Of a DNA stretch of 64,000 bases, positions 9,677 through 46,607 are shown in pieces. Made by a program: the position numbers and the translations under genes. This stretch comes from Dehalococcoidia bacterium (GTDB taxonomy: Bacteria > Chloroflexota > Dehalococcoidia > UBA6926), in NCBI GenBank assembly GCA_963666115.2, contig CAXXET010000004.1, positions 416,001-480,000 on the forward strand, written 5' to 3'. The notes beneath the pieces are model-generated. The model was not told the DNA's origin and searched no databases. It was given only the letters and a program-made list of their open reading frames with translations. The number at the start of each line of letters is the position of its first letter. Position 1 is the first letter of the stretch.

Positions 9677-9724
9677 TAGATTCCCGCTTTCGCGGGAATG
9701 ACGAGGGGGACGCGGGAATGACGG
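9677..9724 (+). repeat. Palindromic repeat family A with duplicated right arm
   Basis: TAGATTCCCGCTTTCGCGGGAATGACG then CGCGGGAATGACG 20 nt later. Confidence 0.9.
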
Positions 9725-11782: not shown

Positions 11783-12990
11783 CCATCGTCAAGACGGGGG
11801 CGGACGCGGAGGCGCCGGGGCGCTTCGGGCAGTTCGGCGGGCGGTACGTGCCGGAGACGCTGATGGCGGCGGTCACGGAGCTCGAGGAGTCGTACGCGGC
11901 GGCGCGGGAGGACACTGAGTTTTTGGCGCGGCTGGATCATCTCTCACGCACGTACGCGGGGCGGCCAACGCCGCTGACGCTGGCGGAACGGCTGACGGAA
12001 CAGAGCGGCGGGGCGCGCATCTATCTCAAGCGGGAGGACTTGGCGCACACGGGGGCGCACAAGATCAACAACGCGCTCGGCCAGGTGCTGCTTGCCCAGC
12101 GCATGGGCAAGACGCGGATCATCGCGGAGACGGGCGCGGGGCAGCACGGCGTGGCGGCGGCGACGGTGTGCGCGCTGCTGGGGCTGGAATGCGTCGTCTA
12201 CATGGGCGAAGAGGACATCCACCGGCAGGCGCCAAACGTGTTCCGCATGAGGCTGCTTGGAGCGGACGTCGTGTCCGTGACGTCCGGTTCGCGGACGCTC
12301 AAGGACGCCGTGAACGAGGCGATGCGCGACTGGGTGACGAACGTGGCGAACACGTACTACGTCATCGGCAGCGTCGTGGGGCCGCACCCCTACCCTGTCA
12401 TCGTGCGCGATTTCCAGTCCGTCATCGGACGGGAGGCGCGCGAGCAGATGCTGGAGGCGGAGGGTCGGCTGCCGTCGCATCTCGTGGCGTGCGTGGGGGG
12501 CGGGAGCAACGCGATGGGGCTGTTCCATGCGTTTTACGGCGACCAGAACGTCGCGATGGTCGGCGTGGAGGCGGCGGGGCACGGCATCGATACGGGCGAG
12601 CACAGCGCGAGCTTAGGGGCGGGCAAGCCGGGCGTGCTGCACGGGTCGTTCTCGCAAGTTCTGCAGGACGAGTGGGGGCAGGTGACGGAGACGCACAGCA
12701 TCTCCGCAGGGCTGGACTACCCGGGCGTGGGGCCGGAGTTGTCGTACTACCAGGAGACGGGTCGGGCGCGGTTCACGAGCGTGACGGACACGGAGGCGCT
12801 GGAAGGTTTTAAGCTCTTGGCGCGGACGGAGGGGATCATCCCGGCGCTGGAGTCGTCACACGCGATATTTGAGGCGGCGCGGCTGGCGTCGACGCTGCCG
12901 TCGGAGGACATTATCCTGATCAACCTGAGCGGCCGCGGGGACAAGGACCTGGCGACCGTGACAGACGCTTTGGGCATCGACCTGGGCTGA
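11779..12990 (+). CDS. trpB: Tryptophan synthase beta chain (TrpB1 type)
   Basis: [60 protein letters not shown]. Confidence 0.97.
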
Positions 12991-13184
12991 CCGGCGAGCG
13001 GCGGGCATCGTTCATCGGCTCCCAAAAAGACGCTACCCCCTGACATTCGCTCGGCCTCGAATGAGAGGGGGCAGCGCAGCGCGGGGAAAGCAGTGAGGTA
13101 CAGTTCACATAGTGACTGCCGTCCCGCGCGCGAACACACCAACGGGTAGTCTACCACAGTTTGGGTAGATAGGGAACGGGGGCA

Positions 13185-13239
13185 CCCTTCGACTGCGCTC
13201 AGCGTGAGCGGATTTGGGGTCAGCGTGAGCGGATTTGGG
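13185..13239 (+). repeat. Repeat family C with 21-nt duplication
   Basis: CCCTTCGACTGCGCTCAGCGTGAGCGG; CAGCGTGAGCGGATTTGGG twice. Confidence 0.8.
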
Positions 13240-13977
13240 CGGGGGGGGGGTTATGTTCTTCGGGGGTGGCGGGGCGGGGGGCGGGCACGCCTGCGCGCTA
13301 TGCTTTCGCGGCTCATCGGGGGCTGTCTCCTTTCGGTTTGGGGCTTTCTGCCTGGTCTTGGAGGGAACGCATCGCTGCCGGTTCCTGGCTGTTCGTCGGT
13401 TCGGGCCGGTGGCGCGCTTGGGTCGCAGCCAGGGGACGCCTGACGCTGGGCGGGTCTGCTGCGCCTGCAGGCTCCTCGCCCCATGTTGGGTGGTCACGGG
13501 CCTTTCGATGGCGTTGGCCGTGTCCGCCTCCCGCCAAGCGATCACGTCGCCGGACGGGAAGTTCGTCCCTCGCGCGCAACACGCGGTTAACGTGAGCGGC
13601 GGCGGTCCATCCTCGCACAGCCGCGATGCCACTTCGCGGATGTACGGCATGCCCCTAACGCAGACGCCGATGGCATCTGACCCGCGTCGGACGTTGCGCA
13701 GGGCGGCCCGCCAGGGTCATGGCATGTTTTGGGCCGCTACGCGCTCCCGTCAGCCCACCGTCACTGATCGCCCGTGGCCACGAGCAAACCCGTCGTGGTT
13801 TCCTGGCCGGGTATGTTGAGGAACCTTGGCAGCGATGCGTTCTCTTTTCCCGTGCAGGGGGCGCCCTCCTGTGCGCTCCCGGGGATGGTGGCGGCTCAGT
13901 TGCTAGCGTGTCGGGCCGCCGTGGGATGGCTCGATGTGGGTGACTTTAGGACAGGTGTTTGGGGTGCGTCAAATGGT

Positions 13978-14035
13978 GGTGTCACATGGGGGTGTCACAT
14001 GGGGGCCTGCTCGTTCACCCTGCGACAGGCTCAGC
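13978..14035 (+). repeat. GGTGTCACATGGGGG tandem plus family C copy
   Basis: Two tandem copies followed by CCCTGCGACAGGCTCAG. Confidence 0.7.
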
Positions 14036-14088
14036 ACCCGCCCAATCAGGTATACTCTGCCTAAAGACAGCAAGAGAGGACTCATTCA

Positions 14089-14286
14089 ATGGCCGCCCAA
14101 CAGACAGCGCCTTCCGAAGAACGACTGACCCGCCTTGAGGCCAAGATGGGCGAGCATTCCCGCGAGATTGGCGGCATGCGGCAGGACATTCGCGATCTGC
14201 GGTCTTCGATCGACACGCTGCGGAACATCATCATCGTGGCCGCCATCGGCGCCGTTGTTACTCTCATCATTGGGGCTTTCATATAG
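14089..14286 (+). CDS. Small coiled-coil protein with C-terminal membrane anchor
   Basis: 65 aa, AGAGGA RBS, heptad-like ERLTRLEAKM..IRDLRSSIDTLR then TM helix. Confidence 0.7.
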   Translation: MAAQQTAPSEERLTRLEAKMGEHSREIGGMRQDIRDLRSSIDTLRNIIIVAAIGAVVTLIIGAFI

Positions 14287-14402
14287 GGTGCGACCACACG
14301 GGCGAGCGGAGAAGAGGGTGGCTGCGCCGATTGTGAACATGTATAGGGCGGGGTAGGAGAGTTGGGGCTTACTGGGCGTTGCTCATGGCCTGCGTCAAGG
14401 CG

Positions 14403-14447
14403 GGGTGTCACATGGGGGGCACCCTCGATGGGCTCAGGGTGAGCGGG
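14403..14447 (+). repeat. GGTGTCACATGGGGG plus family C copy
   Basis: GGGTGTCACATGGGGGGCACCCTCGATGGGCTCAGGGTGAGCGG. Confidence 0.75.
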
Positions 14448-14465
14448 GGGCTGCAGGCGCGGCAG

Positions 14466-14696
14466 TTAGGATGGTCCGGTTTCCGCCTCGAACGTAAAGA
14501 ACGCGCTGGTAGGAACATTCATGGCTTCGGCAATGGCGCGGATGTTTTTAAGCGAGGGATTACGGATGCCTCGCTCGATACCTGACAGATAGGTTACGTG
14601 GACGCCGGCTCGGTGAGCCACCTCTTCCTGTGTGGCTCCCTGCAGCGTCCTCAGATGGCGTATGTGTCGGCCAAACGCGGCCAAGTAAGCATCCAC
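14466..14696 (-). CDS. XRE-family HTH, restriction-modification controller (C) protein-like
   Basis: 76 aa from GTG: FGRHIRHLR..TQEEVAHRAGVHVTYLSGIERGIRNPSLKNI..IAEAM.V..S.FF. Confidence 0.85.
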   Translation of the reverse strand: MDAYLAAFGRHIRHLRTLQGATQEEVAHRAGVHVTYLSGIERGIRNPSLKNIRAIAEAMNVPTSAFFTFEAETGPS

Positions 14697-14720
14697 TTGA
14701 CGGGACGCTATCAAGACATA

Positions 14721-14746
14721 GATTATTAGTCCATAGACTATAAGTC
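14721..14746 (-). promoter_or_regulatory. Tandem C-box operator
   Basis: Minus strand GACTTATAGTC-TATG-GACTAATAATC, 24 nt upstream of the GTG. Confidence 0.8.
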
Positions 14747-14853
14747 TATATGGCGTCATGGGCGGGGCGACCAACACATCCCCCAGGGCTGCCAGCTAAT
14801 CCCAAGGAGACGGTGAGGTCAGCGCCACAGCCGAGGTGGCAGGGGGCATTTGA

Positions 14854-15336
14854 ATGAAGAGGCTACAGGTCTTGTTCCTGGTTGTCTTGGCGAGCATGAT
14901 CCCGTTCGCCGTGCTGGGGTGTGAGGAAGGCGGCGAAGAACCAACAGCATCAACCTTCGAGATGGAGCAACCTACGGTGACACCCGAACCTATTGCGACA
15001 ACTATAGCCACGGCGACGCCTACACCGGTAACGGACAATTCGGCGATGGCGGTACCGTCCATCCAGGAGTATGTGGAGGTTAGAGACGCTGCTATAAGTC
15101 AGGATGGCGACACCTACAGCTTGGTTCTGGTCGTTGACAGGGCAACTAGCACGGAGCGAGCCAAGGAGTTGGGCGATAACTTCGTTAGGATGGTGAAGAG
15201 CTTTGGCCCCGACGATTCACCCGGGCAGGAGATTGGCAGCGGTACCTACGACTACCTCATCGGAATCTACTACCCTGACGGAGAGCAGGTGGCACTCGGC
15301 GCCAAGTCCAGAATTTCGACGCGGATAACCTGGTAG
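14854..15336 (+). CDS. Lipoprotein with Thr/Pro linker
   Basis: Signal peptide ending VLG-C, TPTP-rich linker, small globular domain. Confidence 0.75.
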   Translation: MKRLQVLFLVVLASMIPFAVLGCEEGGEEPTASTFEMEQPTVTPEPIATTIATATPTPVTDNSAMAVPSIQEYVEVRDAAISQDGDTYSLVLVVDRATSTERAKELGDNFVRMVKSFGPDDSPGQEIGSGTYDYLIGIYYPDGEQVALGAKSRISTRITW

Positions 15337-15376
15337 CGGCAGTCCTACTCCCCTCGTGTGCAATATGACTTCGACA

Positions 15377-16378
15377 TCATCTGCGGCGTGTGCTGTCCAA
15401 GGCGAGGCCATCTCGGATCAGCGGTTGAACGCTCATCATCTGTGGATCTAACCCCTCAAGGTCAAGTAATGCCTCGAAGCGCTTCCTTAGCTTGTCATCA
15501 ACACGCTGAATTTCCCTTATCTCGGCTAACTCAACGCCCAACCTTCCGAAGACTCCTTCTGCAGTTCCGTTGAGGCGGTATCTCTTGCCGTTTGCCTCAA
15601 TCCACACGGCATTGTCCTTTGCACATAGAAGGGCCGATCCCAGAGTAAGGGGCCATTTGTCGCCATAATCGCTTGCATTGATCCTCCTTTTGGCTGCACT
15701 CCACAGAAACCAAGTTCGTTCCCAAGTCACTAGACACCTGACATACAAGAGGGAGGGGATGGCAAGGCATACTGGCAGCAGCAGCGATTGGAGTATGGAT
15801 ATTGCGATCGAAGAGTCCTCAATGACGCGAAGTGTCGCCAGGGCGAGAGAAAGCAGCACATACGACGCAAGGAGGGTAGCGATGGTCGTGTAGCCGAAAC
15901 CATCAGACCTGTTCGACTGAAGGGAGGCAAACACAAGTGATAGGAACGACAACACTGGGAAGATGAGCAACTCCAGCAGCAAAGGCAATGTAGATGCGCT
16001 CAAGACTGCTGTCGCGAATGCCGCCAGCAGAACCCCCTTGGTCGGGAATTTTAGTGCGCTCTCACCTTCAAGATACTTGTCGTAGTTCATGAGAAAACCG
16101 ATGCCAGAGAACAAAAACCAGGATAAGGCGCCAACTACTGGCAGGATCTCCCAAAACCCAGCAATTCTGCCCAGCAACACGGCCATGATCGTTGCTAGAA
16201 CCACCGTAAGGAAGAGCCCCAGCAATGGCAAAAGAAGGCCCCAATGCAACAGCGTTCTGGCTATCCCCCACAAGGACGTGCGAAATGAGGCGCTGAAGCC
16301 AATTGTCAGCGTGGCTACGGACAGAGCCCACAACATCGTGGCCTGATGTCGCGCATTAAGGTCGTAGAATTCAATCAC
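15377..16378 (-). CDS. Multi-pass membrane protein with C-terminal YebY/DUF2511-like domain
   Basis: About 7 hydrophobic segments, then DYGDKWPLT..LLC..AVWIEANGKRYRLNGTA..MSVQPLIRDGLAL; lower GC than flanks. Confidence 0.6.
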   Translation of the reverse strand: MIEFYDLNARHQATMLWALSVATLTIGFSASFRTSLWGIARTLLHWGLLLPLLGLFLTVVLATIMAVLLGRIAGFWEILPVVGALSWFLFSGIGFLMNYDKYLEGESALKFPTKGVLLAAFATAVLSASTLPLLLELLIFPVLSFLSLVFASLQSNRSDGFGYTTIATLLASYVLLSLALATLRVIEDSSIAISILQSLLLPVCLAIPSLLYVRCLVTWERTWFLWSAAKRRINASDYGDKWPLTLGSALLCAKDNAVWIEANGKRYRLNGTAEGVFGRLGVELAEIREIQRVDDKLRKRFEALLDLEGLDPQMMSVQPLIRDGLALDSTRRR

Positions 16379-16475
16379 AGGATTAAGCCGTATGCATTAG
16401 GATGGCAGTGGCGCGCCTGACGGTGTCTATAGGCATGGTTTCGCTCTGATAGTACAGCACAGGGAAGGGTGTCCA

Positions 16476-16501
16476 CCCTTCGACGAGCTCAGGAGGAGCG
16501 G
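16476..16501 (+). repeat. Repeat family C
   Basis: CCCTTCGACGAGCTCAGGAGGAGCGG. Confidence 0.75.
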
Positions 16502-16575
16502 CTGGGAAGGGCTCAGTTTAGCAAGGGAAATCTACGTAGCCACGACCATTAGCTCTGAAGGGGGAGCCACCCGTT

Positions 16576-16830
16576 CTACCGATAAGGGTACTTGTTGCTC
16601 TTTCTCCGGTTGGCCGAAGTCTGCATGGCTTGCAAATTCCTAGGGGAATTAGTTCCGCCCTTCGACTTGGGCTTGGAATGGTCGACCTCCCAACTCTTCG
16701 GTCCGTTCTTTCCGTAGGCAGGCTTATAGATCTCGTTGCCCAGTGGGTCTCTCCGAAAGAGACCTGGGTTCTTTCCTCGGATTGGTTGCGCCTTATCCCA
16801 AGCCGTGTTCCGTCGACGTTTGCTCGCCAT
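16576..16830 (-). CDS. Stand-alone small HNH endonuclease
   Basis: WEVDHSKPKSKGGTNSPRNLQAMQTSANRRKSN; AAGGAG RBS. Confidence 0.85.
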   Translation of the reverse strand: MASKRRRNTAWDKAQPIRGKNPGLFRRDPLGNEIYKPAYGKNGPKSWEVDHSKPKSKGGTNSPRNLQAMQTSANRRKSNKYPYR

Positions 16831-17067
16831 ATCAGTTCAACTCCTTGCTAGAGTGCTCTAGCACCTACGATCCATCTGTTTTTGCTCCGGCACACACTTG
16901 GCGGTGCTGCCGGGACGCCCTGCACCTCTCCCGGCCCCTCCCTCTTAAGACGACTCTGGCCACACTTGGCCCCACCAGCCATACCGAACACCGACCAGTA
17001 TACTCAGCGGTTTCTGGCCGTCAATGCCTACGGGTAGAGACTTTACGGGGTGGTGCCGCGTCCGCTG

Positions 17068-17305
17068 GATTCCCGCTTTCGCGGGAAAAAGGGGGGCGGC
17101 GGCGCTAGGGGGTTTGGTTGGCGCTATGAGATTCAGATTCCCGCGTGCGCGGGAATGACGGAGGGGGGGGCCGCCGGCGCGGGGGATTCGGGGGTAGGTG
17201 TGCGGGATGTGACCCTGCGGGCCACGCGATGGATTCCGGCCTACGCCGGAATGACGGAGGGGTGAACCCCGCTCGTTCTTCGACGGGCTCAGGGTGAGCG
17301 GGGGG
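17068..17305 (+). repeat. Cluster of three family A variants and one family C copy
   Basis: GATTCCCGCTTTCGCGGGAA (17068), GATTCCCGCGTGCGCGGGAATGACG (17136), GATTCCGGCCTACGCCGGAATGACG (17232), TTCTTCGACGGGCTCAGGGTGAGCGG (17276). Confidence 0.85.
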
Positions 17306-17316
17306 GAGAGGGGATT

Positions 17317-18291
17317 TTATGGGAGGGTTAGGAGGTGGGATTCCAGGGTTAGGCGGGCGTTGGCGTTTTGGCGGAGGGCCTGGATGGTGAAGAGGGTGTT
17401 CATGAGGGCGGATTGGGATTGGTGCAGGGTGGCATCGATTTGGCGGATGTTGTCCAGGGTTTGTGGGTCTGTTATGTCTTCGGGGGAGCCTGCCGCTACG
17501 ATTAGGGCGTCTCGCCAGATTGAGGCCCATGCTTCCAGGCGGGTTAGGAGGCGTTGGCGGTCTGCGTAGAAATCTTCGGCCATTTTGCCTGCTCGCTTTA
17601 GGCGGTCGGCGACGGGTTCGTTTCGGAGGGCGATGATTTCATCGAGGGCGGCGCGGCGGGCTTCCAGCGGGGCGGCATCGGCCAGGAGGCTGAGGGCGAA
17701 TTCGAGGCGGCCGCCGGAGAGTTTTGCCAAGCGGTTCGCGTCGTCATCGTCGGCGCCGTTCTGGCGCAATGCCTCCGCGACCTGGTCAAACGGGATCGGG
17801 CGGAGCGGAACGATCTGGCAGCGGGAGCGGATCGTGTCGAGCAGCGCCTCATCGTTGGCCGTGACGAGGATGAGGGTGACGTTCGGGTGCGGCTCTTCCA
17901 GGACCTTGAGGAGGGCGTTTGCGGCTTCGCGGGTGAGGGTGTCGGCATCGTCGATGATGATGACGCGGCCCTTCGCTTCATAGGGCTGGAGGTTGGCGGC
18001 GGCCTGGAGGTCTCTCGCGGCCTCGATGCCGATGGAGCCTGCGCTGGTGGGCGAGATAACCAGAACATCGGCGTGGTTGCCGCTTTCGATGCGCCGGCAG
18101 TGGCGGCAGTCAACGCACGGCCTCTCTTGCTCCGATTCACACAGCAGGGCTTTTGCGAACTCACGGGCGAGGGCCATGCCGCCGACGCCCTGGGGGCCGG
18201 TCAGCAGCCACGCGTGGGCTAGCCGTCCTTGTTTGACTGAGCGGTCAAGGAGGGCGATTGCGTCTTGGTCGGCGGGGACAGTCCAAGCCAT
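17317..18291 (-). CDS. holB: DNA polymerase III subunit delta prime
   Basis: HAWLLTGPQGVG, C..PCVDCRHC, ANALLKVLEEP, TIRSRC. Confidence 0.92.
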   Translation of the reverse strand: MAWTVPADQDAIALLDRSVKQGRLAHAWLLTGPQGVGGMALAREFAKALLCESEQERPCVDCRHCRRIESGNHADVLVISPTSAGSIGIEAARDLQAAANLQPYEAKGRVIIIDDADTLTREAANALLKVLEEPHPNVTLILVTANDEALLDTIRSRCQIVPLRPIPFDQVAEALRQNGADDDDANRLAKLSGGRLEFALSLLADAAPLEARRAALDEIIALRNEPVADRLKRAGKMAEDFYADRQRLLTRLEAWASIWRDALIVAAGSPEDITDPQTLDNIRQIDATLHQSQSALMNTLFTIQALRQNANARLTLESHLLTLP

Positions 18292-18297
18292 GGCGGG

Positions 18298-19617
18298 TTA
18301 GGCGTCGAGGCGGAGGAGGTCTTCTATGGTTTCGCGGCGGCGGATTGTGCGGGGTTCGCCGTTGGAGACGAGGACGACTTCGGGGCGGGGGTTGGCGTTG
18401 TAGGTGGATGACATTGCGATGCAGTATGCGCCGGAGACGGGGATGGCAAGGATATCGCCGGCGGCAGGGGTCGGCAGGGGGCAATCGCGGACGAGGATGT
18501 CGCCGGATTCGCAGTATTTGCCCGCGATGGTGACGGTGATTTCCTCGGCGTCCGCCATGCGGGAGGCCAGCACGGCCTCATATTGCGAGCCGTAGATGGC
18601 GGGGCGGATGTTGTCGCCCATGCCGCCGTCGACGGAGACGTAGGTGCGGATGTCCGGGAGGAGCTTGGTCGCGCCGACGGTGTAGAGGGCGACGCCTGCC
18701 GTGCCGACCATAGAGCGGCCCGGCTCGATGGATATGGCGGGGAGTTCAAGGCCGTGAACATCACAGCCCTGGATGACGGCCTTTGAGATAGTGGCGATGT
18801 ATGAGTCCGGGGCGGGGGCTTCGTCCGTGGCGAGGTAGTTGACGGCAAAGCCGCCGCCCGGGCTGAACATTCGCATCGTGAAGCCGTGCTTCTCCTTCAT
18901 CTGCGCGGCAAACTCCATCGTAATCTGAATGGCCTCTTCATAGGGCTCAAGCTCAAATATGGGGGAGCCGAGGTGGAAATGGAGGCCGGCAACGTCGAGG
19001 CGCGGCGACTGCATGGCGCGCGCGATTGCCTCTTCCGCCTGGCCGGTCTGGATGGCGAGACCGAACTTGCTGTCCAGCACGCCGGTGGTGGTGTGGGCGT
19101 GGGTGTGCGGATCAACGCCGGGTGAGACGCGGAACGACACCTGCTGCGTTTTTTCCAGCCGCTCAAGGATGTACTCAAGCAGTGCGAGTTCATGGAGGTT
19201 GTCAACGACGATTGCGCCGATGCCGGACTCGACGGCCTGTTCAAGCTCCGCAGCGCTCTTGTTGTTTCCATGGAAGTGGACGTTGGCGGGGTCGATGCCC
19301 GCCGCCTGCGTGGTGATCAGTTCGCCGCCGCTTACAACGTCAAAGCCGACGCCCTCTTCGGCAAGCAGGCGGAAAAGGGCGACGTTGGAGAACGCCTTGG
19401 AGGCGTAGATGATGGAGCTTTCGCCGGGGTAGTGGGCGTCCAGGGCGGCGCGGAAGCGGCGGGCTGAGTCACGCAGTTCGGCCTCATCAAAGACGTAGAG
19501 GGGGGTGCCGCGTTCTTGGGCGAGCTGGACGGTGTCCAAGCCGGCGATTTCAAGGTTGCCGTTGGGGCGTGCCTTTGCGGAGGCTGGGAAAACGGGAAGG
19601 GCGTCAATTCCTCTCAT
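18298..19617 (-). CDS. lysA: Diaminopimelate decarboxylase
   Basis: GTPLYVFD, YASKAF, DVVSGGEL, SKFG, HFHLGS, EPGRS, GKYCESGD, GAY. Confidence 0.95.
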   Translation of the reverse strand: MRGIDALPVFPASAKARPNGNLEIAGLDTVQLAQERGTPLYVFDEAELRDSARRFRAALDAHYPGESSIIYASKAFSNVALFRLLAEEGVGFDVVSGGELITTQAAGIDPANVHFHGNNKSAAELEQAVESGIGAIVVDNLHELALLEYILERLEKTQQVSFRVSPGVDPHTHAHTTTGVLDSKFGLAIQTGQAEEAIARAMQSPRLDVAGLHFHLGSPIFELEPYEEAIQITMEFAAQMKEKHGFTMRMFSPGGGFAVNYLATDEAPAPDSYIATISKAVIQGCDVHGLELPAISIEPGRSMVGTAGVALYTVGATKLLPDIRTYVSVDGGMGDNIRPAIYGSQYEAVLASRMADAEEITVTIAGKYCESGDILVRDCPLPTPAAGDILAIPVSGAYCIAMSSTYNANPRPEVVLVSNGEPRTIRRRETIEDLLRLDA

Positions 19618-19629
19618 TTGTATGGATCT

Positions 19630-19663
19630 CCCTCACCCTAACCCTCTCCCTGAGGGAGAGGGG
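19630..19663 (+). repeat. CCCTCACCCTAACCCTCTCCC-GGGAGAGGG palindromic element (family D, single copy here)
   Basis: Hairpin CCCTCTCCC-TGA-GGGAGAGGG adjoining a family B copy. Confidence 0.65.
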
Positions 19664-19669
19664 ATTTTG

Positions 19670-19717
19670 GATTCTTCGCTGCGCTCAGAATGACAGTGGT
19701 AACGCTCAGAATGACAG
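19670..19717 (+). repeat. Repeat family B with duplicated right arm
   Basis: GATTCTTCGCTGCGCTCAGAATGACA then CGCTCAGAATGACAG 21 nt later. Confidence 0.88.
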
Positions 19718-19746
19718 TCATTGTAATCAATTGATAGTCATTGTAA

Positions 19747-20640
19747 TCATGGGAGGCGGTATGTGATTCCTGGGGTGGTTTCGGCGGTTTTGCCTTCGGC
19801 GGTTAGCTTGATTAGGTGGGCGACGATCTGTTCGCGGGCGGCGTTCCAGCGCCATTCTTCAAGGTTTGCCGCACCGTAGAGCCGCTCACGCATGGCGTCC
19901 ACATCCGTTACGCCGTCGCGCAGGCATTCCAATATGGACTCATCGCGGGAATTGCGGTGCCCGATGAGTTCCGCGAGCTTGGCGGCGGGGTCTGCGACGG
20001 GCGGGCCGTGGAACGAGAGGAGCAGGCTGGCGTTTTGGTCGGCGAGCCTCTGTAGGGAGTCTACGTAGGCGGCCATATCGCCGCCCTGGTCGAGGTGGAC
20101 GGCGGTGGTGCCGCGGCTGAGGACGCAATCGCCGGAGAAGAGGACGCCGTCGGGTTGGAGGATGTAGCACATGCTGCCGCCGACGTGGCCGGGGGTGGCG
20201 ATGGCGTGGATTGTCCTGCCGCCGCCGAGGTCGAATGTTTCGCCACCGTTGAGGGGCGTGTCGACGACGTGGCCGGCGTGTTCGTTGATGGCGTCTACGT
20301 CTGCGGCGCCGGCGTGGACTGTGAGGCGGGGGAATGCGGATTTGAGGGTTTTTGCGCCGCCGCTGTGTTCGTCGAAGCGGTCTGTGAGCAAAAGGAGGTG
20401 TAGATTCCCGCTTTCGCGGGAATGACGGACGGGGGGGCGGGAATGACGGACGGGGGGGATGGCGGTGGGGGATGAGTTGATGGCGTTGATGATGCGTTGG
20501 GAGACGTCTTGTTCGTTGTGGCCGGCGTCTATTAGGGCGGCGGCGGTTTCGCCCTGGACCCAGTAGACGTGGGGGGAGTCGTCGTCATCGGGGCGCAGGG
20601 TTATGGCAGTGACGTTGGGGGCGACATTCGTGGTGGTCAT
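19747..20640 (-). CDS. MBL-fold hydrolase (LACTB2-like with C-terminal wHTH), degenerate metal motif, internal repeat insertion
   Basis: ALIDAG, LLLTDRFDEHSGG, TPGHVGGS, LFSGD, SFHGP, AHLIKL. Confidence 0.8.
   Translation of the reverse strand: MTTTNVAPNVTAITLRPDDDDSPHVYWVQGETAAALIDAGHNEQDVSQRIINAINSSPTAIPPVRHSRPPVRHSRESGNLHLLLLTDRFDEHSGGAKTLKSAFPRLTVHAGAADVDAINEHAGHVVDTPLNGGETFDLGGGRTIHAIATPGHVGGSMCYILQPDGVLFSGDCVLSRGTTAVHLDQGGDMAAYVDSLQRLADQNASLLLSFHGPPVADPAAKLAELIGHRNSRDESILECLRDGVTDVDAMRERLYGAANLEEWRWNAAREQIVAHLIKLTAEGKTAETTPGITYRLP
20401..20458 (+). repeat. Family A repeat inside coding sequence
   Basis: TAGATTCCCGCTTTCGCGGGAATGACGG with 21-nt duplication; encodes PPVRHSR-PPVRHSR-ESGNL on the minus strand. 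Confidence 0.9.
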
Positions 20641-20747
20641 GGAAATCCTCCGATGGCGCGGCGGCGCAGTCTCAAGACACGCGCATTTTTGGCCGCGTCG
20701 TGTAAGAATCCTAAGAAAGCGCGTTAAGGGGTGTCAACGTGGGGGCG

Positions 20748-20823
20748 CCCTTCGACAGGCTCAGGGTGACCGGAGGGGGGCTCAGGGTGGACGGAGAGAT
20801 TCTTCGCTGCGCTCAGAATGACA
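20748..20823 (+). repeat. Family C (with duplication) plus family B
   Basis: CCCTTCGACAGGCTCAGGGTG..GCTCAGGGTG; GATTCTTCGCTGCGCTCAGAATGACA at 20798. Confidence 0.88.
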
Positions 20824-20856
20824 GGTAAGTGAGACCGGTGGTTATGGCAGGGGAAA

Positions 20857-21510
20857 ATGAGTATGACGGTGGCGCATAGCGGGATGGATTTGCGGATTTT
20901 TTCGTTGATGGATGTTGGGAGCTGGGGGAATAACTGCTACGTGGTGACGGATCCGCTGCGGAACGTCGCGGCGATCATCGACGCGGCGGCGGAGGCGGAC
21001 AGGATTCTCACGGCCGTCGAGGGGCTTGAGGTTAGCTATATCCTGACGACGCACCGGCACGCGGATCACTTTGGGGCGTTGGAGGAGGTGTCCGCGGCGC
21101 TGCCGGACGCAGTTGTGGCGGCGACGGCAGCCGACGCGGGGGAGCTGCCCGTCACCCCTACCCTGCTGCTGGAGGACGGTGAAACGCTCCAGATTGGAAC
21201 GGTGCCGCTGCGGGTGATCACGACGCCGGGGCATACGCCGGGGAGCGTATGCTTCATAACGGGACAGCACCTGTTCTCAGGCGATACTCTTTTCCAGGGC
21301 GGGCCGGGACATTCAACCAGCCCCGAGGCTCTCCGGCAGGTGATCACGAGCATTACGACGAAGCTGTACACGCGTCCCGACGAGACGATTGTGTACACAG
21401 GGCATGGAGGGGGAACGACGATCGGCGAGAGCAAGGCGGAATACGCGGTGTTCGCGGCCAAGCCGCACGCCGATGACCTGCACGGCGACATAGTATGGCT
21501 CGAATCGTGA
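20857..21510 (+). CDS. MBL-fold metallo-hydrolase (glyoxalase II/YcbL-like)
   Basis: NNCY, THRHADH, TPGHTPGS, FSGDTLF, YTGHG..TTIG. Confidence 0.92.
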   Translation: MSMTVAHSGMDLRIFSLMDVGSWGNNCYVVTDPLRNVAAIIDAAAEADRILTAVEGLEVSYILTTHRHADHFGALEEVSAALPDAVVAATAADAGELPVTPTLLLEDGETLQIGTVPLRVITTPGHTPGSVCFITGQHLFSGDTLFQGGPGHSTSPEALRQVITSITTKLYTRPDETIVYTGHGGGTTIGESKAEYAVFAAKPHADDLHGDIVWLES

Positions 21511-21560
21511 GCGGCGACACGCGCGCCATGCCGGCGCCCACCACCATTAGCGGGTACACG

Positions 21561-22844
21561 ATGACGGAGGCGCTCGCGCCGTATACGAAGAGCGTGCTGC
21601 TGAACGGCATCCGGCTGCTGACGGCATCAATGCCGGCGACGCGGGCCGTCTCGGTCGCGTTCTACGTCGGCACCGGCTCGCGTTTCGAGCGCGAGGACGA
21701 GTCCGGGGCGTCGCACTTTTTGGAGCACATCCTTTTCAAGGGGACTGAGAAGAGGCCGCTGGCGCAGGACGTGTCCGAGACCATCGAGCGCGTCGGCGGG
21801 TTCATGAACGCCAGCACGGACCGTGAGGTGACGATCTATTGGGCGCGGGTGGCGCGGCCTCACCTGTCCATCGGCATCGATATTTTGTCGGATATGCTTT
21901 TGAACTCGACGTTCCCGCCGGAGGAGATCGAGAAGGAACGGGACGTCATCCTGGAGGAGATTCACACGTCGGTCGATTCGCCTGCGCAGCGCGCGTTTCA
22001 AATGGCAGACAAGATCATGTGGCCGGACCAGCCGCTCGGCCGGGACATCGCGGGGACGGAGGAGAGCGTCCGCGAGCTTTCGCGGGACACGATCATGTCC
22101 TATATGCGGGAGCAGTATGACCCGTCGCAGATTGTGATGGCGGTGGCGGGGCAGATCGAGCACGCGGAGATCGAGCAGGTGGTGGGCGAGTTGCTGGAGA
22201 CGTGGCCGAGCGGGAGTCCGCGCGCGATGCCGCCCGTGGACGACACGGCGCCGGAGAGCCGCGTTGCGGTGGAATACCGCAAGACGGAGCAGGCCAACAT
22301 CTGCCTGATGTTCCCGGGGATGTCCGCGCATGATCCGGACCGGCGCGCGCTGTGGCTGCTGAACGCAATTCTCGGCGACGGGATGGCGTGCCGCCTGTTC
22401 CTGGAGCTGCGCGAGCGGCTGGGCCTCGTCTATGAAGTGGATACGGACGTGATGTATCTACAGGATACGGGCGCGATGGCGGTGTACGCGGGGACGGCAC
22501 CGCAGCGGGGGCCACAGGCGCTGGAGGCGGTCATCACGGAGCTGGAGCGGGCGACCACGGACATCACGCAGAGCGAACTGGAGCGGGCGCGCGAGTTGTC
22601 CAAGGGACGGATGCTGCTGCGGCTGGAGGATACGCGCAGCATTTCCGGCTGGCTGGGTGGGCAGGAGATCACCTTTGGGCATATCGAGACGCCGGAGGAG
22701 GTTGTCGGACAGTTGGACAGCATTACGGTGGACGACGTGCAGCGGGTGGCGCGGCGCGTCTTCAACCCGGACAACTACCGGCTAACGGTGGTGGGGCCGT
22801 ACCGGAGCGACCGCAAGTTCAGGAATATCATCGAGGGCCGGTAG
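21561..22844 (+). CDS. M16 family zinc peptidase
   Basis: HFLEH inverted zinc motif, NAST, RLFLELRERLGLVY; start uncertain (21495-21561). Confidence 0.92.
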   Translation: MTEALAPYTKSVLLNGIRLLTASMPATRAVSVAFYVGTGSRFEREDESGASHFLEHILFKGTEKRPLAQDVSETIERVGGFMNASTDREVTIYWARVARPHLSIGIDILSDMLLNSTFPPEEIEKERDVILEEIHTSVDSPAQRAFQMADKIMWPDQPLGRDIAGTEESVRELSRDTIMSYMREQYDPSQIVMAVAGQIEHAEIEQVVGELLETWPSGSPRAMPPVDDTAPESRVAVEYRKTEQANICLMFPGMSAHDPDRRALWLLNAILGDGMACRLFLELRERLGLVYEVDTDVMYLQDTGAMAVYAGTAPQRGPQALEAVITELERATTDITQSELERARELSKGRMLLRLEDTRSISGWLGGQEITFGHIETPEEVVGQLDSITVDDVQRVARRVFNPDNYRLTVVGPYRSDRKFRNIIEGR

Positions 22845-22865
22845 GCGGGAATTGGCGAGGCGGCT

Positions 22866-23129
22866 ATGTTTCGGAGGCTAACGCAGATTCTCACGGTCAT
22901 CGTCATCATTGCGGTGATCTACGAGGAGTTGAGAAAGGACCCGGAGAGCGAGCGGTGGCATGGGCGGGCGCTCGGATTCGTGCCGTATGATTTGCGTCCG
23001 CCGAGTCTTCGGCAGATACGGGAGACGTATTGGAATCCGAAGGATAAGCGGATCTTTCCGGGCAAGGTGGCCGGCATTGGGTGGGGCATTAATTTCGCGG
23101 CGCTGTTCGACCGGATCAGCCGGATGTAG
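22866..23129 (+). CDS. Small membrane-anchored protein (DUF5808-like)
   Basis: N-terminal TM, WNPKDKRIFPGKVAGIGWGINF. Confidence 0.7.
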   Translation: MFRRLTQILTVIVIIAVIYEELRKDPESERWHGRALGFVPYDLRPPSLRQIRETYWNPKDKRIFPGKVAGIGWGINFAALFDRISRM

Positions 23130-23212
23130 CGGGTTGTTATGTCGGCGGGGGAGTTGTGCTATAGTCCACGCGATACCTGCCTGGGATCACGGGGGAGTGG
23201 GGGAAGGCCGTC

Positions 23213-23545: not shown

Positions 23546-23602
23546 GGTTGTGTTATTAATGGATGTGCGGGAGCGGGCAACTGAAAGGGAGGGAAGCGGC
23601 GA

Positions 23603-23776: not shown

Positions 23777-23805
23777 CGCGAGTGCATGGCCTGGGACGAA
23801 CGACC

Positions 23806-24651: not shown

Positions 24652-24685
24652 CGGCACGGCACGCCGCCGGACGGAGACCTATCCG

Positions 24686-25210
24686 ATGCCGGACATCACT
24701 CCAGACGAGTTTCGCCGTGTGATGGGACGGTTCGCCACCGGCGTGACCGTCGTTACGACGCGCGCGGGGGATGACGCGCATGGGACGACGATGAGCGCAG
24801 TCTGTTCTGTGTCCTTGCAGCCGCAGCTCGTGCTCGTCTGCGTCGACCACGCATCCGACATTCACGCGCTCATCCACGAGAGCGGCGTCTTCGCCGTGAA
24901 TATCCTGCACGAGGGGCAGGCGGATTTGGCCGCCCAGTTGTCCCACAAGGGCACAGCCGAACTGCTGGCGGCACATCGACTGGAAAACCTGCCGCATCGA
25001 ACCGGCGAGTCGGGCGCGCCGCTCCTGGAGGACAGCCTGGCCCACGTGGAATGCCGCGTTGAGAACACTGTCGAGGCGGGGGATCACACGATATACGTTG
25101 GGGTTGTCGTGGGGGCGGGGGTGAACGGGGGGGCGGAGAGGCCGCTGCTGCATTATGAGGGGGAGTACCGGGGGTTAGGGGATCATAGATTCCCGCTTTC
25201 GCGGGAATGA
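24686..25210 (+). CDS. Flavin reductase family protein
   Basis: FRRVMGRFATGVTVVTT, SVSLQP, FAVNIL, GDHTIYVG; last codons come from a repeat. Confidence 0.92.
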   Translation: MPDITPDEFRRVMGRFATGVTVVTTRAGDDAHGTTMSAVCSVSLQPQLVLVCVDHASDIHALIHESGVFAVNILHEGQADLAAQLSHKGTAELLAAHRLENLPHRTGESGAPLLEDSLAHVECRVENTVEAGDHTIYVGVVVGAGVNGGAERPLLHYEGEYRGLGDHRFPLSRE

Positions 25211-25233
25211 CGAAGTGGGCGCGGGAATGACGG
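25186..25233 (+). repeat. Family A repeat with duplicated right arm
   Basis: TAGATTCCCGCTTTCGCGGGAATGACG then GCGGGAATGACG 20 nt later. Confidence 0.9.
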
Positions 25234-25243
25234 AGTTCGTTTG

Positions 25244-25272
25244 TTGACACGGATTCCGTTCCTACCTACAAT
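25244..25272 (+). promoter_or_regulatory. Sigma70 promoter of the ribosomal superoperon
   Basis: TTGACA-17 nt-TACAAT. Confidence 0.8.
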
Positions 25273-25823: not shown

Positions 25824-25827
25824 GGCC

Positions 25828-35130: not shown

Positions 35131-35532
35131 ATGACCGTTAGCGATCCCATTGGCGATATGCTCACCCGCATCCGCAACGGGTTGATGGCGCGGCACGAAA
35201 CCATCACGGTGCCGGCGTCCAAGACCAAGGTCGCCATTGCAGAGATTCTCAAACAGGAGGGGTTCATCCGCGACTTTTCGATCCTGAAGGGGTCAACGCC
35301 CCAGCAGATCGTGCGGATGCAGATGGCGTACCGCGAGGGCAACAGCCCCGTGATCAACGGGCTGCGGCGCGTGAGCAAGCCGGGACTGCGCGTGTACGTG
35401 CAGCGCGGCGAGATTCCGCGCATCTTCGGCGGTCTCGGCATCGCGGTTGTTTCAACGTCGAGCGGCGTGATGACGGGCCGGGAGGCGTGGCGGAAGGGTA
35501 TTGGAGGGGAGCTTTTGGCGTATGTGTGGTGA
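35131..35532 (+). CDS. rpsH: 30S ribosomal protein S8
   Basis: [25 protein letters not shown]. Confidence 0.98.
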
Positions 35533-35538
35533 GGGGAA

Positions 35539-35600
35539 GATTCTTCGCTGCGCTCAGAATGACAGATTTGGTCGAAATGACAGGTTTGGTCAGAATGAGA
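35539..35600 (+). repeat. Family B repeat with two decayed right-arm copies
   Basis: GATTCTTCGCTGCGCTCAGAATGACAG then AATGACAG and CAGAATGAGA at 18-nt steps. Confidence 0.85.
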
Positions 35601-46109: not shown

Positions 46110-46511
46110 ATGACGACAGCAGGTCGATTTTTCCAGGGGACGGGGCGGCGCAAGCGCGCGGTGGCGCGTGTGCGCGTGACGCCGGGGGGCGAGTCCATGT
46201 TTGTGGTGGACGGCAAACCGCTCGAGGAGCGATTCCCGCTGGAAATCCATCGCCGCTCGATCTTGCAGCCGCTGGTCGCGACGGACTCGCTGCGCCGGTT
46301 CGCGATTTCAGTGAAGGTCACGGGGGGCGGGGTAACGGGGCAGGCTGAGGCGATCCGTCACGGCCTGGCGCGGGCGCTTTCGCGCCTCGATGAGTCGATG
46401 CGGCCGGTGCTCAAGAAAGTCCGCTTTCTCACGCGGGACGCGCGTGAGAAGGAGCGGAAGAAGTACGGCCTGTTCCGGGCGCGGAAGAAGCAGCAGTATT
46501 CGAAGCGGTAG
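46110..46511 (+). CDS. rpsI: 30S ribosomal protein S9
   Basis: GTGRRK, GGGVTGQA, ERKKYG, QYSKR. Confidence 0.98.
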   Translation: MTTAGRFFQGTGRRKRAVARVRVTPGGESMFVVDGKPLEERFPLEIHRRSILQPLVATDSLRRFAISVKVTGGGVTGQAEAIRHGLARALSRLDESMRPVLKKVRFLTRDAREKERKKYGLFRARKKQQYSKR

Positions 46512-46607
46512 ATTCCCGCTTTCGCGGGAATGACGGAGTTGGGACGGGAATGACGGAGTGGGGGCCGGGTTAAGGCCTTTGGATTCTTCGCTGCGCTCAG
46601 AATGACA
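46509..46607 (+). repeat. Family A (with duplication) plus family B between convergent genes
   Basis: TAGATTCCCGCTTTCGCGGGAATGACGG, CGGGAATGACGG 20 nt later, GATTCTTCGCTGCGCTCAGAATGACA at 46582. Confidence 0.9.

What the first reader, a model, noticed from the sequence alone, without database searches (positions are those of the whole stretch)
17300..17600. Strand-specific C-depleted mutation halos around the repeats
Seen: next to repeats the + strand becomes G/T-rich irrespective of coding direction. The last 17 sense codons of rpsH (before the 35539 repeat) have no C-ending codon (GGT ATT GGA GGG CTT TTG TAT); the 3' end of minus-strand holB uses CTA, GTA, ATA, ACA, CCA, CAA; similar patches at 19750-19830, 20280-20640, 20850-20950, 25090-25190, 46610-46700. 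Proteins stay intact. Inference: recurrent local single-strandedness or error-prone repair (C loss on one strand) initiated at the repeats, a localized mutagenesis process that, with the polarity and 20-nt duplications, may be one undescribed system. Caveat: similar patches near 1050-1330 and 22960-23160 have no visible repeat.
Basis: partly seen in the sequence, partly recalled or inferred. Interest (0 to 1): 0.7.

Follow-up and report, generated by a model that had tools for sequence, protein, structure and literature searches.

The report
Strand-specific C-loss zones beside hairpin repeats
Genes next to a known kind of hairpin repeat in this sponge-symbiont genome have had their silent codon positions rewritten so that one DNA strand has lost most of its C, a lasting footprint of some strand-specific process at these repeats that has not been described before.

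Summary
At fourfold-degenerate sites genome-wide, C on the regionally G-rich strand falls from 0.31-0.32 (more than 2 kb from a repeat) to 0.12 (under 50 nt). The fall is monotonic and the same for both gene orientations. 577 repeat-free gene junctions show no fall beyond 50 nt.

It arose in this lineage. At 27 gene ends with a repeat only in G000, C3 is 0.228 in G000 and 0.352 in relative G007. In the conserved rpsH and rpsI tails, five relatives agree and G000 alone changed C to G or T.

The repeats are not an unknown system. They are NTS/SRM (dRS3-core) hairpins, targets of the Ssn single-strand nuclease (PMC11893778). G000 encodes a 98-aa GIY-YIG gene flanked by them.

Three results go against simple "mutagenesis started at the repeats". 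95 of 158 extreme patches have no repeat nearby. Sites where only G007 has a repeat are depleted in G000 and not in G007. Total synonymous divergence is not raised (0.340 against 0.315).

Best reading (0.45): the G-rich strand is repeatedly single-stranded at these structured arrays.

The scan noted similar zones in another genome (e1-4796194), and the same repeat family elsewhere (e1-2156569).

The parts
17300..17600 (+). C-depleted patch named in the finding; it covers the last ~95 codons of the minus-strand holB-like gene plus 17 nt beyond its stop
   Evidence: C=0.166, lowest 0.08% of windows of that length. 11 same-genus relatives without a repeat downstream have sense G3 0.29-0.43 in the last 70 codons, against 0.10 here.
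17317..18291 (-). holB-like gene (DNA polymerase III delta-prime); protein intact and full length
   Evidence: Pfam PF13177 at 185.9 bits. Aligns over residues 1-324, or 2-324 in 2 of the 11 fetched loci, at 80-84% identity to those same-genus orthologues.
17063..17255 (+). array of three NTS/SRM-type hairpin repeats (17063-17087 partial, 17136-17159, 17232-17255) with G-rich tails, just beyond the holB stop
   Evidence: absent at this place in 11 relatives
9679..9702 (+). SRM hairpin repeat, family B (GATTCCCGC..GCGGGAATGAC)
19670..19694 (+). hairpin repeat, family A (GATTCTTCGC..GCTCAGAATGAC) with a duplicated 3' half; flanked by C-poor patch 19750-19830
20403..20426 (+). SRM repeat inserted in frame inside the MBL-fold ORF 19747-20640(-); patch 20280-20640 around it
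   Evidence: The alignment with 5 relatives shows extra repeat-encoded residues in G000 only.
20798..20822 (+). family A repeat; patch 20850-20950 lies in the 5' end of the next gene
25188..25211 (+). family B repeat that supplies the stop codon and last residues of the flavin-reductase-like gene 24686-25210; patch 25090-25190 lies before it
35480..35563 (+). rpsH tail (C=0.068) followed by the family A repeat at 35539-35563
   Evidence: Five relatives agree on cgc, ctc, gcc, tac; G000 reads cgg, ttg, gcg, tat.
46470..46606 (+). rpsI (S9) tail with G000-only C-to-G/T changes, then repeats at 46511-46534 (B) and 46582-46606 (A)

Best explanation
The patch is the silent-site-rewritten 3' end of holB. 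It is one of about 200 zones in this genome that flank arrays of NTS/SRM-type hairpin repeats, which have a dRS3 core, G-run tails and 20-nt tandem units.

In these zones the regionally G-rich strand has lost C, mostly to G and partly to T, and has also gained G from A. That strand carries the non-cleavable complement of the Ssn target. Protein sequences are kept.

I read this as a local intensification of the genome's own strand-asymmetric substitution bias. The proposed cause is that the G-rich strand is single-stranded unusually often or for unusually long around these structured arrays. Two triggers are possible and are not resolved here:
(a) Hairpins and G-runs on the lagging-strand template stall Okazaki synthesis and leave post-replication gaps, as the E. 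coli RRS elements do.
(b) The resident Ssn-like nuclease nicks the opposite, C-rich strand when it is transiently single-stranded, and enlargement of the gap exposes the G-rich strand on both sides.

Damage to exposed C and A, followed by gap filling, fixes the changes. A genome-wide preference for G/C at third positions turns the C loss into G gain.

Shown: the composition gradient, its strand, its independence from coding direction, its origin in this lineage, the direction of the substitutions, the identity of the repeats, and the presence of a candidate ssn gene.

Inferred: single-strandedness, the trigger, the lesion chemistry, and that the G-rich strand is the lagging-strand template.
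For: 1. Gradient. At fourfold sites, C is 0.12 under 50 nt, 0.13-0.18 at 50-100 nt, 0.18-0.25 at 100-200 nt, and 0.31-0.32 beyond 2 kb. It is nearly identical for genes on either strand. First and second codon positions shift far less. This fits a DNA-level bias filtered by protein constraint, and does not fit translation or transcription effects.
2. Same strand on both sides. C is 0.099/0.144/0.205 on the 5' side and 0.129/0.129/0.202 on the 3' side of 198 clusters. The zone is slightly longer on the 5' side of the G-rich strand (200-300 nt: 0.195 [0.175-0.217] against 0.247 [0.223-0.274]). A lagging-strand gap, or resynthesis starting from a nick in the opposite strand, would extend in that direction.
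3. Origin in this lineage. In the syntenic 64 kb, five relatives have 0-2 repeats against 11 in G000. At codons within 100 nt of G000 repeats, C3 is 0.07-0.10 in G000 and 0.24-0.26 in the relatives. With the relatives' consensus as ancestor, C-to-G is 0.34 and C-to-T 0.23 near repeats, against 0.11 and 0.07 far away. T-to-C is 0 of 12 near, against 0.37 far. Over 465 orthologue pairs with G007, G000-only repeat sites have C3 0.228 against 0.352; 22 of 27 gene ends are lower, Wilcoxon p 8e-5.
4. Direction. Near G000-only repeats, C>G is 97 against 14, C>T 63 against 20, and A>G 58 against 13. C>T and A>G are the two deamination transitions expected of exposed single strands (established knowledge, recalled).
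5. The same direction is seen genome-wide but weaker: C>G 5206 against 2454, A>G 4600 against 2389. Repeat density also tracks regional skew measured outside 500 nt of any repeat (rho 0.44, p 5e-6).
6. Structure-forming content. 337 of 384 G4 motifs in regions of clear skew (|skew| at least 0.03; 448 motifs genome-wide) lie on the G-rich strand. Repeats with a G4 motif nearby have deeper and wider halos.
7. Precedent. RRS elements with a G4 on the lagging-strand template cause single-strand gaps of up to 2 kb (PMC11194060: abstract and section 21 read).
8. Repeat identity. The reverse complement of family B reads CGTCATTCCCGCG-AAA-GCGGGAATC, which is the NTS motif. Ssn binds and cuts only that strand, and only as single-stranded DNA (PMC11893778: sections 6-8 read). 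A 98-aa single-domain GIY-YIG gene flanked on both sides by the repeats is present.
Against: 1. Halos are not exclusive to repeats. 95 of 158 extreme patches oriented with the G-rich strand have no repeat within 200 nt. About 9-13% of repeat-free gene 3' ends have C3 of 0.15 or less.
2. Gene ends where only G007 has a repeat are depleted in G000 (0.267) but not in G007 (0.357). So a repeat is neither necessary in G000 nor sufficient in G007.
3. G007 and G010 carry 159 and 243 copies and small GIY-YIG genes, yet show only weak halos.
4. Halo strength does not depend on how consensus-like a copy is (Spearman -0.06 and -0.10, not significant).
5. Silent-site divergence is not clearly raised near repeats (0.340 against 0.315, p 0.32). 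Gains of C are suppressed. A fixation bias would also produce this.
6. The largest component, C-to-G, is not a deamination product.
7. The 64 intergenic hairpins among 124 unrelated perfect hairpins (stem of at least 9 bp, more than 500 nt from family repeats) have only a weak effect (0.25 and 0.29 against a 0.35 baseline). Hairpin formation alone is therefore not enough.
8. The G-rich strand is not proven to be the lagging-strand template. Skew changes sign at least six times on contigs C4 and C6. dnaA (C8, about 66 kb) is not at a sign change. Only 52.7% of coding bases have their sense on the G-rich strand.
9. For trigger (b), the halo should follow repeat orientation. In 4 of the 5 isolated opposite-oriented copies with clear regional skew it follows the regional G-rich strand instead. 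These numbers are small.
Confidence: 0.45

Rival explanations
1. Common cause, or target preference. Certain junctions, mostly gene 3' ends, are intrinsically prone to being single-stranded on one strand. In G000's strongly asymmetric mutational regime they lose C. Independently, the hairpin repeats insert or persist there. The repeats mark the zones but do not make them.
For: There are halos without repeats: 95 of 158 patches, and intergenic G4 motifs more than 500 nt from repeats have C3 0.20/0.25/0.29. G007-only repeat sites are depleted in G000 (0.267 against 0.345 background). There is no dependence on repeat score. Repeat positions turn over quickly between species while using the same kinds of junction.
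Against: At G000-only repeat sites G007 shows no pre-existing depletion (0.352 against 0.363 background). 577 repeat-free junctions in G000 are flat beyond 50 nt. Extreme 40-codon windows are about 10 times commoner within 200 nt of a repeat (231 of 1575, against 493 of 32179 beyond 1 kb). Repeat-free halos could be left over from repeats that were later lost, and part of the G007-only signal could be the 0.5-2 kb tail of nearby G000 repeats.
Confidence: 0.25
2. Selection at the DNA level. C-free flanks on the repeat-bearing strand are favoured because they keep the hairpins and G-runs unpaired and accessible in single-stranded DNA, or because they prevent very stable long-range G-run:C-run structures that would block replication.
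For: Overall silent-site divergence is not raised, while gains of C are suppressed. T>C is 0.179 against 0.403 and G>C is 0.032 against 0.070. This is what a fixation bias predicts. C is lost in every sequence context. The effect is specific to these families and is not seen at any hairpin.
Against: It would need effective selection on hundreds of individual silent sites per locus over about 200 loci, in a 2-Mb symbiont genome. Relatives with the same repeats and a similar GIY-YIG gene show little of it. The same direction of change occurs genome-wide far from any repeat. Saturation can also hide gains of C when the rate of C loss is high.
Confidence: 0.12
3. Shielding from recombination. Ssn cuts incoming single-stranded DNA at the repeats, so flanking DNA is replaced less often by homologous recombination and drifts further towards the lineage's skewed mutational equilibrium.
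For: In Neisseria, Ssn with NTS lowers integration of transforming DNA. [quoted passage not shown] In the halos the direction of change equals the genome-wide direction.
Against: Recombination among conspecifics that share the same bias would not restore C. A range of 100-200 nt is short for recombination tracts. Competence in this organism was not examined. Divergence near repeats is not clearly higher here.
Confidence: 0.08
4. Artefact or ordinary feature: a gene-end codon effect, the background GC skew, chance, or assembly or sequencing error.
For: Gene ends in general lose some C in the last 50 nt (0.29-0.31). The window has a positive skew throughout.
Against: Controls matched for gene ends and oriented by the same skew are flat beyond 50 nt. 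The decay survives at fourfold sites. Reading frames are intact and the proteins are 80-100% identical to relatives. Substitutions are codon-synonymous and directional, which errors would not be.
Confidence: 0.03

Closest known systems
NTS / SRM hairpin repeats and the Ssn (SsnA) GIY-YIG single-strand nuclease (Chenal et al. 2025, PMC11893778; outline/abstract, sections 6, 7, 8, 12 and a term search read)
   Same: The dRS3 core ATTCCC-N8-GGGAAT with the orienting CGTC flank. Hundreds of mostly intergenic copies in mosaic arrays. A roughly 95-aa single-domain GIY-YIG gene flanked by the repeats on both sides. A symbiont host.
   Different: The paper describes an effect on transformation. It has no occurrence of 'skew', 'lagging' or 'leading strand' in its main text. 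It describes no compositional or substitution halo and no orientation bias relative to the G-rich strand. Family A here (GATTCTTCGC..GCTCAGAATGAC) is a variant not named there. Its supplementary tables were not opened and might list this lineage.
Raised divergence of dRS3-adjacent genes in Neisseria meningitidis (as cited in the Discussion of PMC11893778, its refs 31, 41, 42; the originals were not read)
   Same: Genes next to the same kind of repeat evolve differently from the rest of the genome.
   Different: That work reports lower identity between strains and attributes it to recombination. Here divergence is not clearly raised; what changes is the direction (loss of C on one strand).
E. 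coli RRS elements (Pham et al. 2024, PMC11194060; abstract and section 21 read)
   Same: GC-rich structured repeats whose G4 lies on the lagging-strand template, leaving that strand single-stranded nearby. Strand-specific and dependent on orientation.
   Different: There are two copies per genome, each 222 bp. The gap runs to one side for about 2 kb. No evolutionary footprint is reported. No sequence relationship was tested.
Replication-associated GC skew, and the G+T-rich heavy strand of vertebrate mitochondrial DNA (established knowledge, recalled)
   Same: The strand that spends more time single-stranded loses C and A and gains T and G, irrespective of gene orientation.
   Different: Those are gradients over a chromosome or replichore. 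Here the signal peaks within 200 nt of about 200 points, the main gain is G by way of C-to-G, and the skew of this genome does not form two clean replichores.
Strand-coordinated mutation clusters at resected breaks (kataegis-like), and the scan's earlier finding e1-4796194 in an alphaproteobacterium
   Same: Localised, strand-coordinated base changes next to a defined DNA feature. The earlier finding also concerns silent rewriting of housekeeping genes beside palindromic repeats.
   Different: Resection exposes opposite strands on the two sides, so polarity flips across the site, as e1-4796194 reports. Here the same strand is depleted on both sides.

Membership tests
NTS/SRM (Ssn-related motif) repeats | Palindromic dRS3 core ATTCCC-N8-GGGAAT | tested here: met
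   The commonest family B core is GATTCCCGCTTTCGCGGGAATGAC (28 copies with one exact 27-mer). Variants keep the stem through paired changes (CCGGC/GCCGG). Family A has a related but imperfect stem.
NTS/SRM (Ssn-related motif) repeats | Conserved non-palindromic flank that gives orientation (CGTC before the palindrome, C after it) | tested here: met
   The reverse complement of the + strand copies reads CGTCATTCCCGCGAAAGCGGGAATC, against the published CGTCATTCCCGCGMAVGCGGGAATCYRG. The final YRG is only partly matched.
NTS/SRM (Ssn-related motif) repeats | Hundreds of copies, mostly intergenic, clustered | tested here: met
   205 regex copies, 273 with profile search; 154 of the 205 are intergenic; they form mosaic arrays. 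All 22 genus genomes have matches: 59-243 copies in 21, and 4 in one fragmented assembly.
NTS/SRM (Ssn-related motif) repeats | An ssnA homologue in the genome, flanked by the repeats | tested here: met
   A 98-aa ORF at G000:C4, about 200.7 kb, with PF01541 at 58.9 bits, repeats 40-100 nt upstream and downstream, and five 20-nt tandem units.
Ssn nuclease family (cd10448) | Single-domain GIY-YIG protein of about 94 aa with catalytic Tyr, Tyr, Glu | tested here: met
   98 aa, GIY-YIG only. Y10, Y21 and E68 have the same spacing (11 and 47) as the Y6, Y17 and E64 mutated in the paper. The spacing was read by eye.
Ssn nuclease family (cd10448) | Sequence homology to characterised SsnA, or assignment to cd10448 | not tested
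   No CDD library and no SsnA sequence were at hand. NCBIfam gave only sub-threshold hits and there was no PDB match.
Ssn nuclease family (cd10448) | Cuts only the NTS-sense strand, and only as single-stranded DNA | not testable with these tools
   Needs biochemistry.
REP/REPIN with RAYT (Y1 transposase) | A Y1 transposase (PF01797) in the genome | tested here: not met
   0 matches in G000 (100% complete); the control rang in 6 of 14 genomes.
Replication-driven GC skew | Asymmetry independent of gene orientation | tested here: met
   Fourfold sites more than 2 kb from repeats: C 0.320 and G 0.511 for genes on the G-rich strand, C 0.310 and G 0.522 for genes on the other strand.
Replication-driven GC skew | Two sign changes per chromosome, at origin and terminus | tested here: not met
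   At least six sign changes on C4 and C6. dnaA at C8, about 66 kb, has negative skew on both sides. Rearrangements or misjoins at repeats could explain this, so replication is not excluded.
Break-resection mutation clusters (kataegis-like) | Polarity switches across the initiating site | tested here: not met
   The same strand loses C on both sides.
Motif-specific DNA cytosine deaminase footprint | C loss restricted to a sequence context | tested here: not met
   C is depleted after A, C, G and T alike, with halo/background ratios of 0.47-0.73.

The most novel reading that the evidence does not exclude
The resident Ssn-like nuclease acts on the cell's own chromosome. Whenever the C-rich (NTS-sense) strand at an array is briefly single-stranded, it is nicked. 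Gap enlargement and refilling then repeatedly expose and copy the G-rich strand for about 200 nt on each side. The roughly 200 arrays would thus act as built-in, strand-specific local mutators that rewrite neighbouring genes and contribute a sizeable part of this genome's unusual, patchy GC skew. The near-uniform repeat orientation would be what survives selection against cutting the strand exposed at the replication fork.
Probability: 0.15. Interest if true: 0.85.

Novelty: new variant of a known kind. Interest (0 to 1): 0.68.

Why it matters
Ssn nucleases and their hairpin targets were described only in 2025, and their role outside Neisseria transformation is open. A strand-specific substitution footprint centred on these repeats, and specific to one lineage, would be the first sign that the arrays have a physical consequence on the host chromosome in vivo, namely a particular strand being exposed or repaired there. 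It would offer a sequence-only way to find such sites in uncultured bacteria.

It also matters for methods. Codon usage, GC skew and dS near such repeats are distorted. In this genome, regional skew tracks repeat density, so calling origins from skew would mislead.

If the cause is a gap-forming structure, it links to the RRS idea that some sequences are built to leave post-replication gaps.

Tried and rejected
- Polymorphism spectrum from public runs. Only Logan contigs of related strains were available (best word share 0.30). The lay showed 40 of 987 differing places and no raw reads, so no analysis of distance against spectrum was possible. Nothing is claimed from it.
- Rfam on 12500-26000: no family. 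The low-GC stretch at 14-17 kb is therefore not rRNA, contrary to my first guess.
- RAYT/IS200-type transposase as the mobiliser: absent.
- Context-specific deaminase: no context preference.
- Repeat 'age' (profile score) against halo strength: no relation.
- 'Any hairpin does it': 64 unrelated intergenic perfect hairpins give only a weak effect.
- G4 motifs as the better predictor. They do mark halos without repeats. The test is partly circular, because G-rich and C-poor DNA makes G4 motifs by composition.
- Transcription or R-loop origin: rejected. The 5' regions of genes transcribed away from the repeat on the other strand are equally depleted, and fourfold skew is equal for both gene orientations.
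- Translational selection: rejected, because the change is opposite in sense-strand terms for the two gene orientations.
- NCBIfam and PDB gave no useful match for the 98-aa GIY-YIG protein.
- One literature search failed on a syntax error and was not repeated.
- The literature searches found no paper describing compositional halos around bacterial intergenic repeats. That is a statement about those three searches only.
Full report
**What is at the coordinates**

Window 17300-17600 is 42.5% G, 26.9% T and only 16.6% C. Only 0.08% of windows of that length in the 64 kb have as little C. It is coding DNA. It holds the last ~95 codons of a minus-strand gene with a DNA_pol3_delta2 domain (holB-like, 17317-18291). 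In the gene's last 60 sense codons the sense-strand third base is G only 6 times and A 15 times. On the + strand that means C has been replaced.

Just beyond the stop codon lie three hairpin repeats with G-rich tails (17063-17255).

The last 17 sense codons have no C-ending codon, against C3 0.42 in the rest of the gene. Four of the five other patches named as lying next to repeats are in the lowest 0.35-1.6% for C. One (46610-46700) is not unusual. The two 'no repeat' patches are mild.

**Is it more than chance, gene ends and background skew?**

The own genome (2.07 Mb, 9 contigs) has 205 copies of GATTC-N10-16-GAATGAC. 183 of these lie on the locally G-rich strand and 154 are intergenic. A profile search raises the number of loci to 273.

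I called genes with a simple codon-usage scorer: 1621 genes covering 81% of the genome. This is a rough call that over-extends some 5' ends.

- Oriented by the repeat, third-position C falls from 0.37 to 0.16-0.28 for genes on the repeat strand. It falls from 0.28 to 0.15-0.20 for genes on the other strand. It is back at baseline by 200-300 nt. First and second codon positions barely move beyond 50 nt.
- 577 repeat-free junctions, oriented by the same local skew, show nothing beyond 50 nt.
- At fourfold-degenerate sites C rises monotonically with distance: 0.12, 0.13-0.18, 0.18-0.25, 0.21-0.26, 0.24-0.29, and finally 0.31-0.32 beyond 2 kb. The curve is the same in both gene orientations.
- Per gene end, repeat-adjacent ends differ from the ends of repeat-free genes with p from 5e-5 to 7e-13.

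One correction: the main gain is G (0.51 to 0.65). T gains only 0.09 to 0.15.

**Did it arise here?**

The genus has many sequenced species, and holB is 64-86% identical among them. In 11 relatives no repeat follows holB, and the last 70 codons have sense G3 of 0.29-0.43, against 0.10 in G000.

The whole 64 kb is syntenic in five relatives. They carry 0-2 repeats there, against 11 in G000.

- At aligned codons within 100 nt of G000 repeats, C3 is 0.07-0.10 in G000 and 0.24-0.26 in the relatives.
- I took sites where at least four relatives agree and the amino acid is conserved as a proxy for the ancestral state. Within 100 nt of a repeat, G000 kept only 43% of C, against 80% far away. C-to-G was 0.34 and C-to-T 0.23, against 0.11 and 0.07. 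No site became C, and T-to-C was 0 of 12 against 0.37.
- The clearest single cases are the slowly evolving rpsH and rpsI tails. All five relatives read cgc, ctc, gcc, tac; G000 reads cgg, ttg, gcg, tat, directly before a G000-only repeat.

Over 465 orthologue pairs with 0.8 Mb of G007, gene ends with a repeat only in G000 have C3 0.228 in G000 and 0.352 in G007. The G007 background is 0.363. 22 of 27 ends are lower (p 8e-5).

**What speaks against simple causation by the repeats**

- Of 169 extreme 100-nt patches, 158 are depleted in C on the G-rich strand. 63 of those are within 200 nt of a repeat, although only 4.5% of the genome is that close. The other 95 are not.
- Gene ends where only G007 has a repeat are depleted in G000 (0.267) but not in G007 (0.357). 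Several are tight convergent junctions with no trace of a repeat in G000.
- G007's own halo is weak, and only 67 of its 102 copies lie on its G-rich strand. G010 also shows a weak halo.
- Consensus-like and diverged copies have equal halos.
- Total silent-site difference from G007 is 0.340 near G000-only repeats against 0.315 in the background, which is not significant. What changes is the direction: C>G 97 against 14, C>T 63 against 20, A>G 58 against 13, with fewer gains of C.
- The same direction, weaker, holds genome-wide: C>G 5206 against 2454 and A>G 4600 against 2389. So G000 as a whole has a stronger one-strand G enrichment than its relatives, and the halos are its local peaks.
- Repeat density tracks regional skew measured more than 500 nt from any repeat (rho 0.44).

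**Which strand?**

The depleted strand is the same on both sides of a repeat cluster. The zone is slightly longer on the 5' side of the G-rich strand. This excludes a resected double-strand break, which would flip polarity.

It is independent of transcription direction. That excludes codon selection and simple transcription-coupled effects.

In 4 of the 5 isolated opposite-oriented copies with clear regional skew, the halo follows the regional G-rich strand and not the repeat's own orientation. These numbers are too small to rely on.

The G-rich strand is the natural candidate for the lagging-strand template. This is not shown, for three reasons. Skew changes sign many times. dnaA is not at a sign change. 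Genes are not biased to the G-rich strand. Rearrangements or misjoins at repeats could account for all three.

**What the repeats are**

The reverse complement of family B is the published NTS motif: CGTCATTCCCGCG-MAV-GCGGGAATC, with the dRS3 core. SsnA binds it only as single-stranded DNA and cuts a few bases upstream. It does not cut the reverse strand.

In G000 the cleavable strand is therefore the C-rich strand in 183 of 205 copies. G000 encodes a 98-aa single-domain GIY-YIG protein whose Tyr-Tyr-Glu spacing equals that of the residues mutated in SsnA. The gene is flanked on both sides by the repeats and by 20-nt tandem units. That is the arrangement the paper reports for 42% of homologues. 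No Y1 transposase is present.

The paper's main text never mentions skew, leading strand or lagging strand. It cites older work saying that dRS3-adjacent Neisseria genes are more diverged.

The repeat system is therefore known. The strand-specific halo and the orientation rule are not described in that paper, nor in the hits of three literature searches. Its supplementary tables were not opened.

**Most likely mechanism**

A DNA-level, one-strand, two-sided, short-range bias points to repeated exposure of the G-rich strand as single-stranded DNA around the arrays. The bias is strongest at silent sites and follows the same direction as the genome-wide asymmetry.

Two triggers fit.

- The arrays combine hairpins with G-runs. 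337 of 384 G4 motifs in regions of clear skew (448 genome-wide) are on the G-rich strand, and repeats with a G4 motif nearby have deeper and wider halos. Such structures could stall lagging-strand synthesis, as the E. coli RRS elements do (PMC11194060).
- Alternatively, the Ssn-like nuclease could nick the opposite strand, and enlargement of the gap would expose the G-rich strand on both sides.

C>T and A>G are the changes expected of exposed single strands. The dominant C>G is not. It may reflect a preference for G/C at third positions that turns C loss into G gain. That last point is inference.

I put this reading at 0.45. The rivals are a common cause or target preference (0.25), DNA-level selection for C-free flanks (0.12), shielding from recombination (0.08), and artefact (0.03).

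**Verdict**

The repeats belong to a family described in 2025. The halo is a new variant of known strand-asymmetry phenomena. A related case, with polarity flipping across the repeat, was noted by this scan in another genome (e1-4796194; not checked here).

Noticed in passing
window 20380-20450, inside ORF 19747-20640(-): An SRM repeat plus its 21-nt duplicated half sits in frame inside an MBL-fold gene, just before the degenerate HxHxDH strand. G000 has about 16 extra repeat-encoded residues (..IPPVRHSRPPVRHSRESGNL..) that are absent from five relatives.
   Followed up: yes
window 25188-25211: The flavin-reductase-like gene 24686-25210 ends inside a repeat. The TGA of GAATGAC is its stop codon, and its last ~6 residues are repeat-encoded. 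Relatives align only to residue 164-168 of 174.
   Followed up: partly
window ~12990-17300: A G000-specific insertion of about 4.3 kb with lower GC (54-59%) between the gene ending at 12990 and holB. Relatives have only ~200 nt there. It carries an XRE-type HTH ORF, a lipoprotein-like ORF and a 333-aa membrane ORF. It is bounded by repeat arrays and has no Rfam match.
   Followed up: partly
G000:C4 ~200.6-201.0 kb (L106 1330-2000): A candidate ssn gene (98 aa, GIY-YIG) lies between SRM repeats. Downstream are five tandem 20-nt units (CCCCACCCCCGTCATCCCCA). In G010, three small GIY-YIG genes each lie within ~250 nt of a repeat.
   Followed up: partly
whole genome G000: There are other short repeat families. 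These include CCCTCTCCC-N3-GGGAGAGGG hairpins, GTAGGGGCGGTTCGCGAACCGCCCCTAC hairpins, GGCTCAGGGTGAGCGGGGG modules, GGTGTCACATGGGGG units (window 13960-14418), and tandem GGAATGACGGAGGGGG-type 20-21-nt units. Together they form mosaic intergenic arrays.
   Followed up: no
whole genome G000 compared with relatives: G000 has gained G on one strand genome-wide relative to five relatives (third-position G 0.47 against 0.37, with C equal). Its GC skew is patchy (0 to 0.24), with many sign changes. dnaA (C8, ~66 kb) is not at a sign change.
   Followed up: partly
window 5030-5210: A structured-looking, conserved-looking leader follows a C-free intergenic stretch (4915-5020) that contains a GGATTGACAGG remnant resembling the repeat tail. 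It could be a riboswitch; it was not scanned.
   Followed up: no
L002-L012, downstream of holB in relatives: A ~150-nt sequence (CCCCAAAAAGACGCTACCCCCTGACATTCGCTCGGCCTCGAATGAGAGGGGGCAGCG...) is almost identical in 10 of the 11 relatives, downstream of holB. No counterpart was evident in the ~240 nt displayed downstream of holB in G000. It could be a small RNA gene.
   Followed up: no
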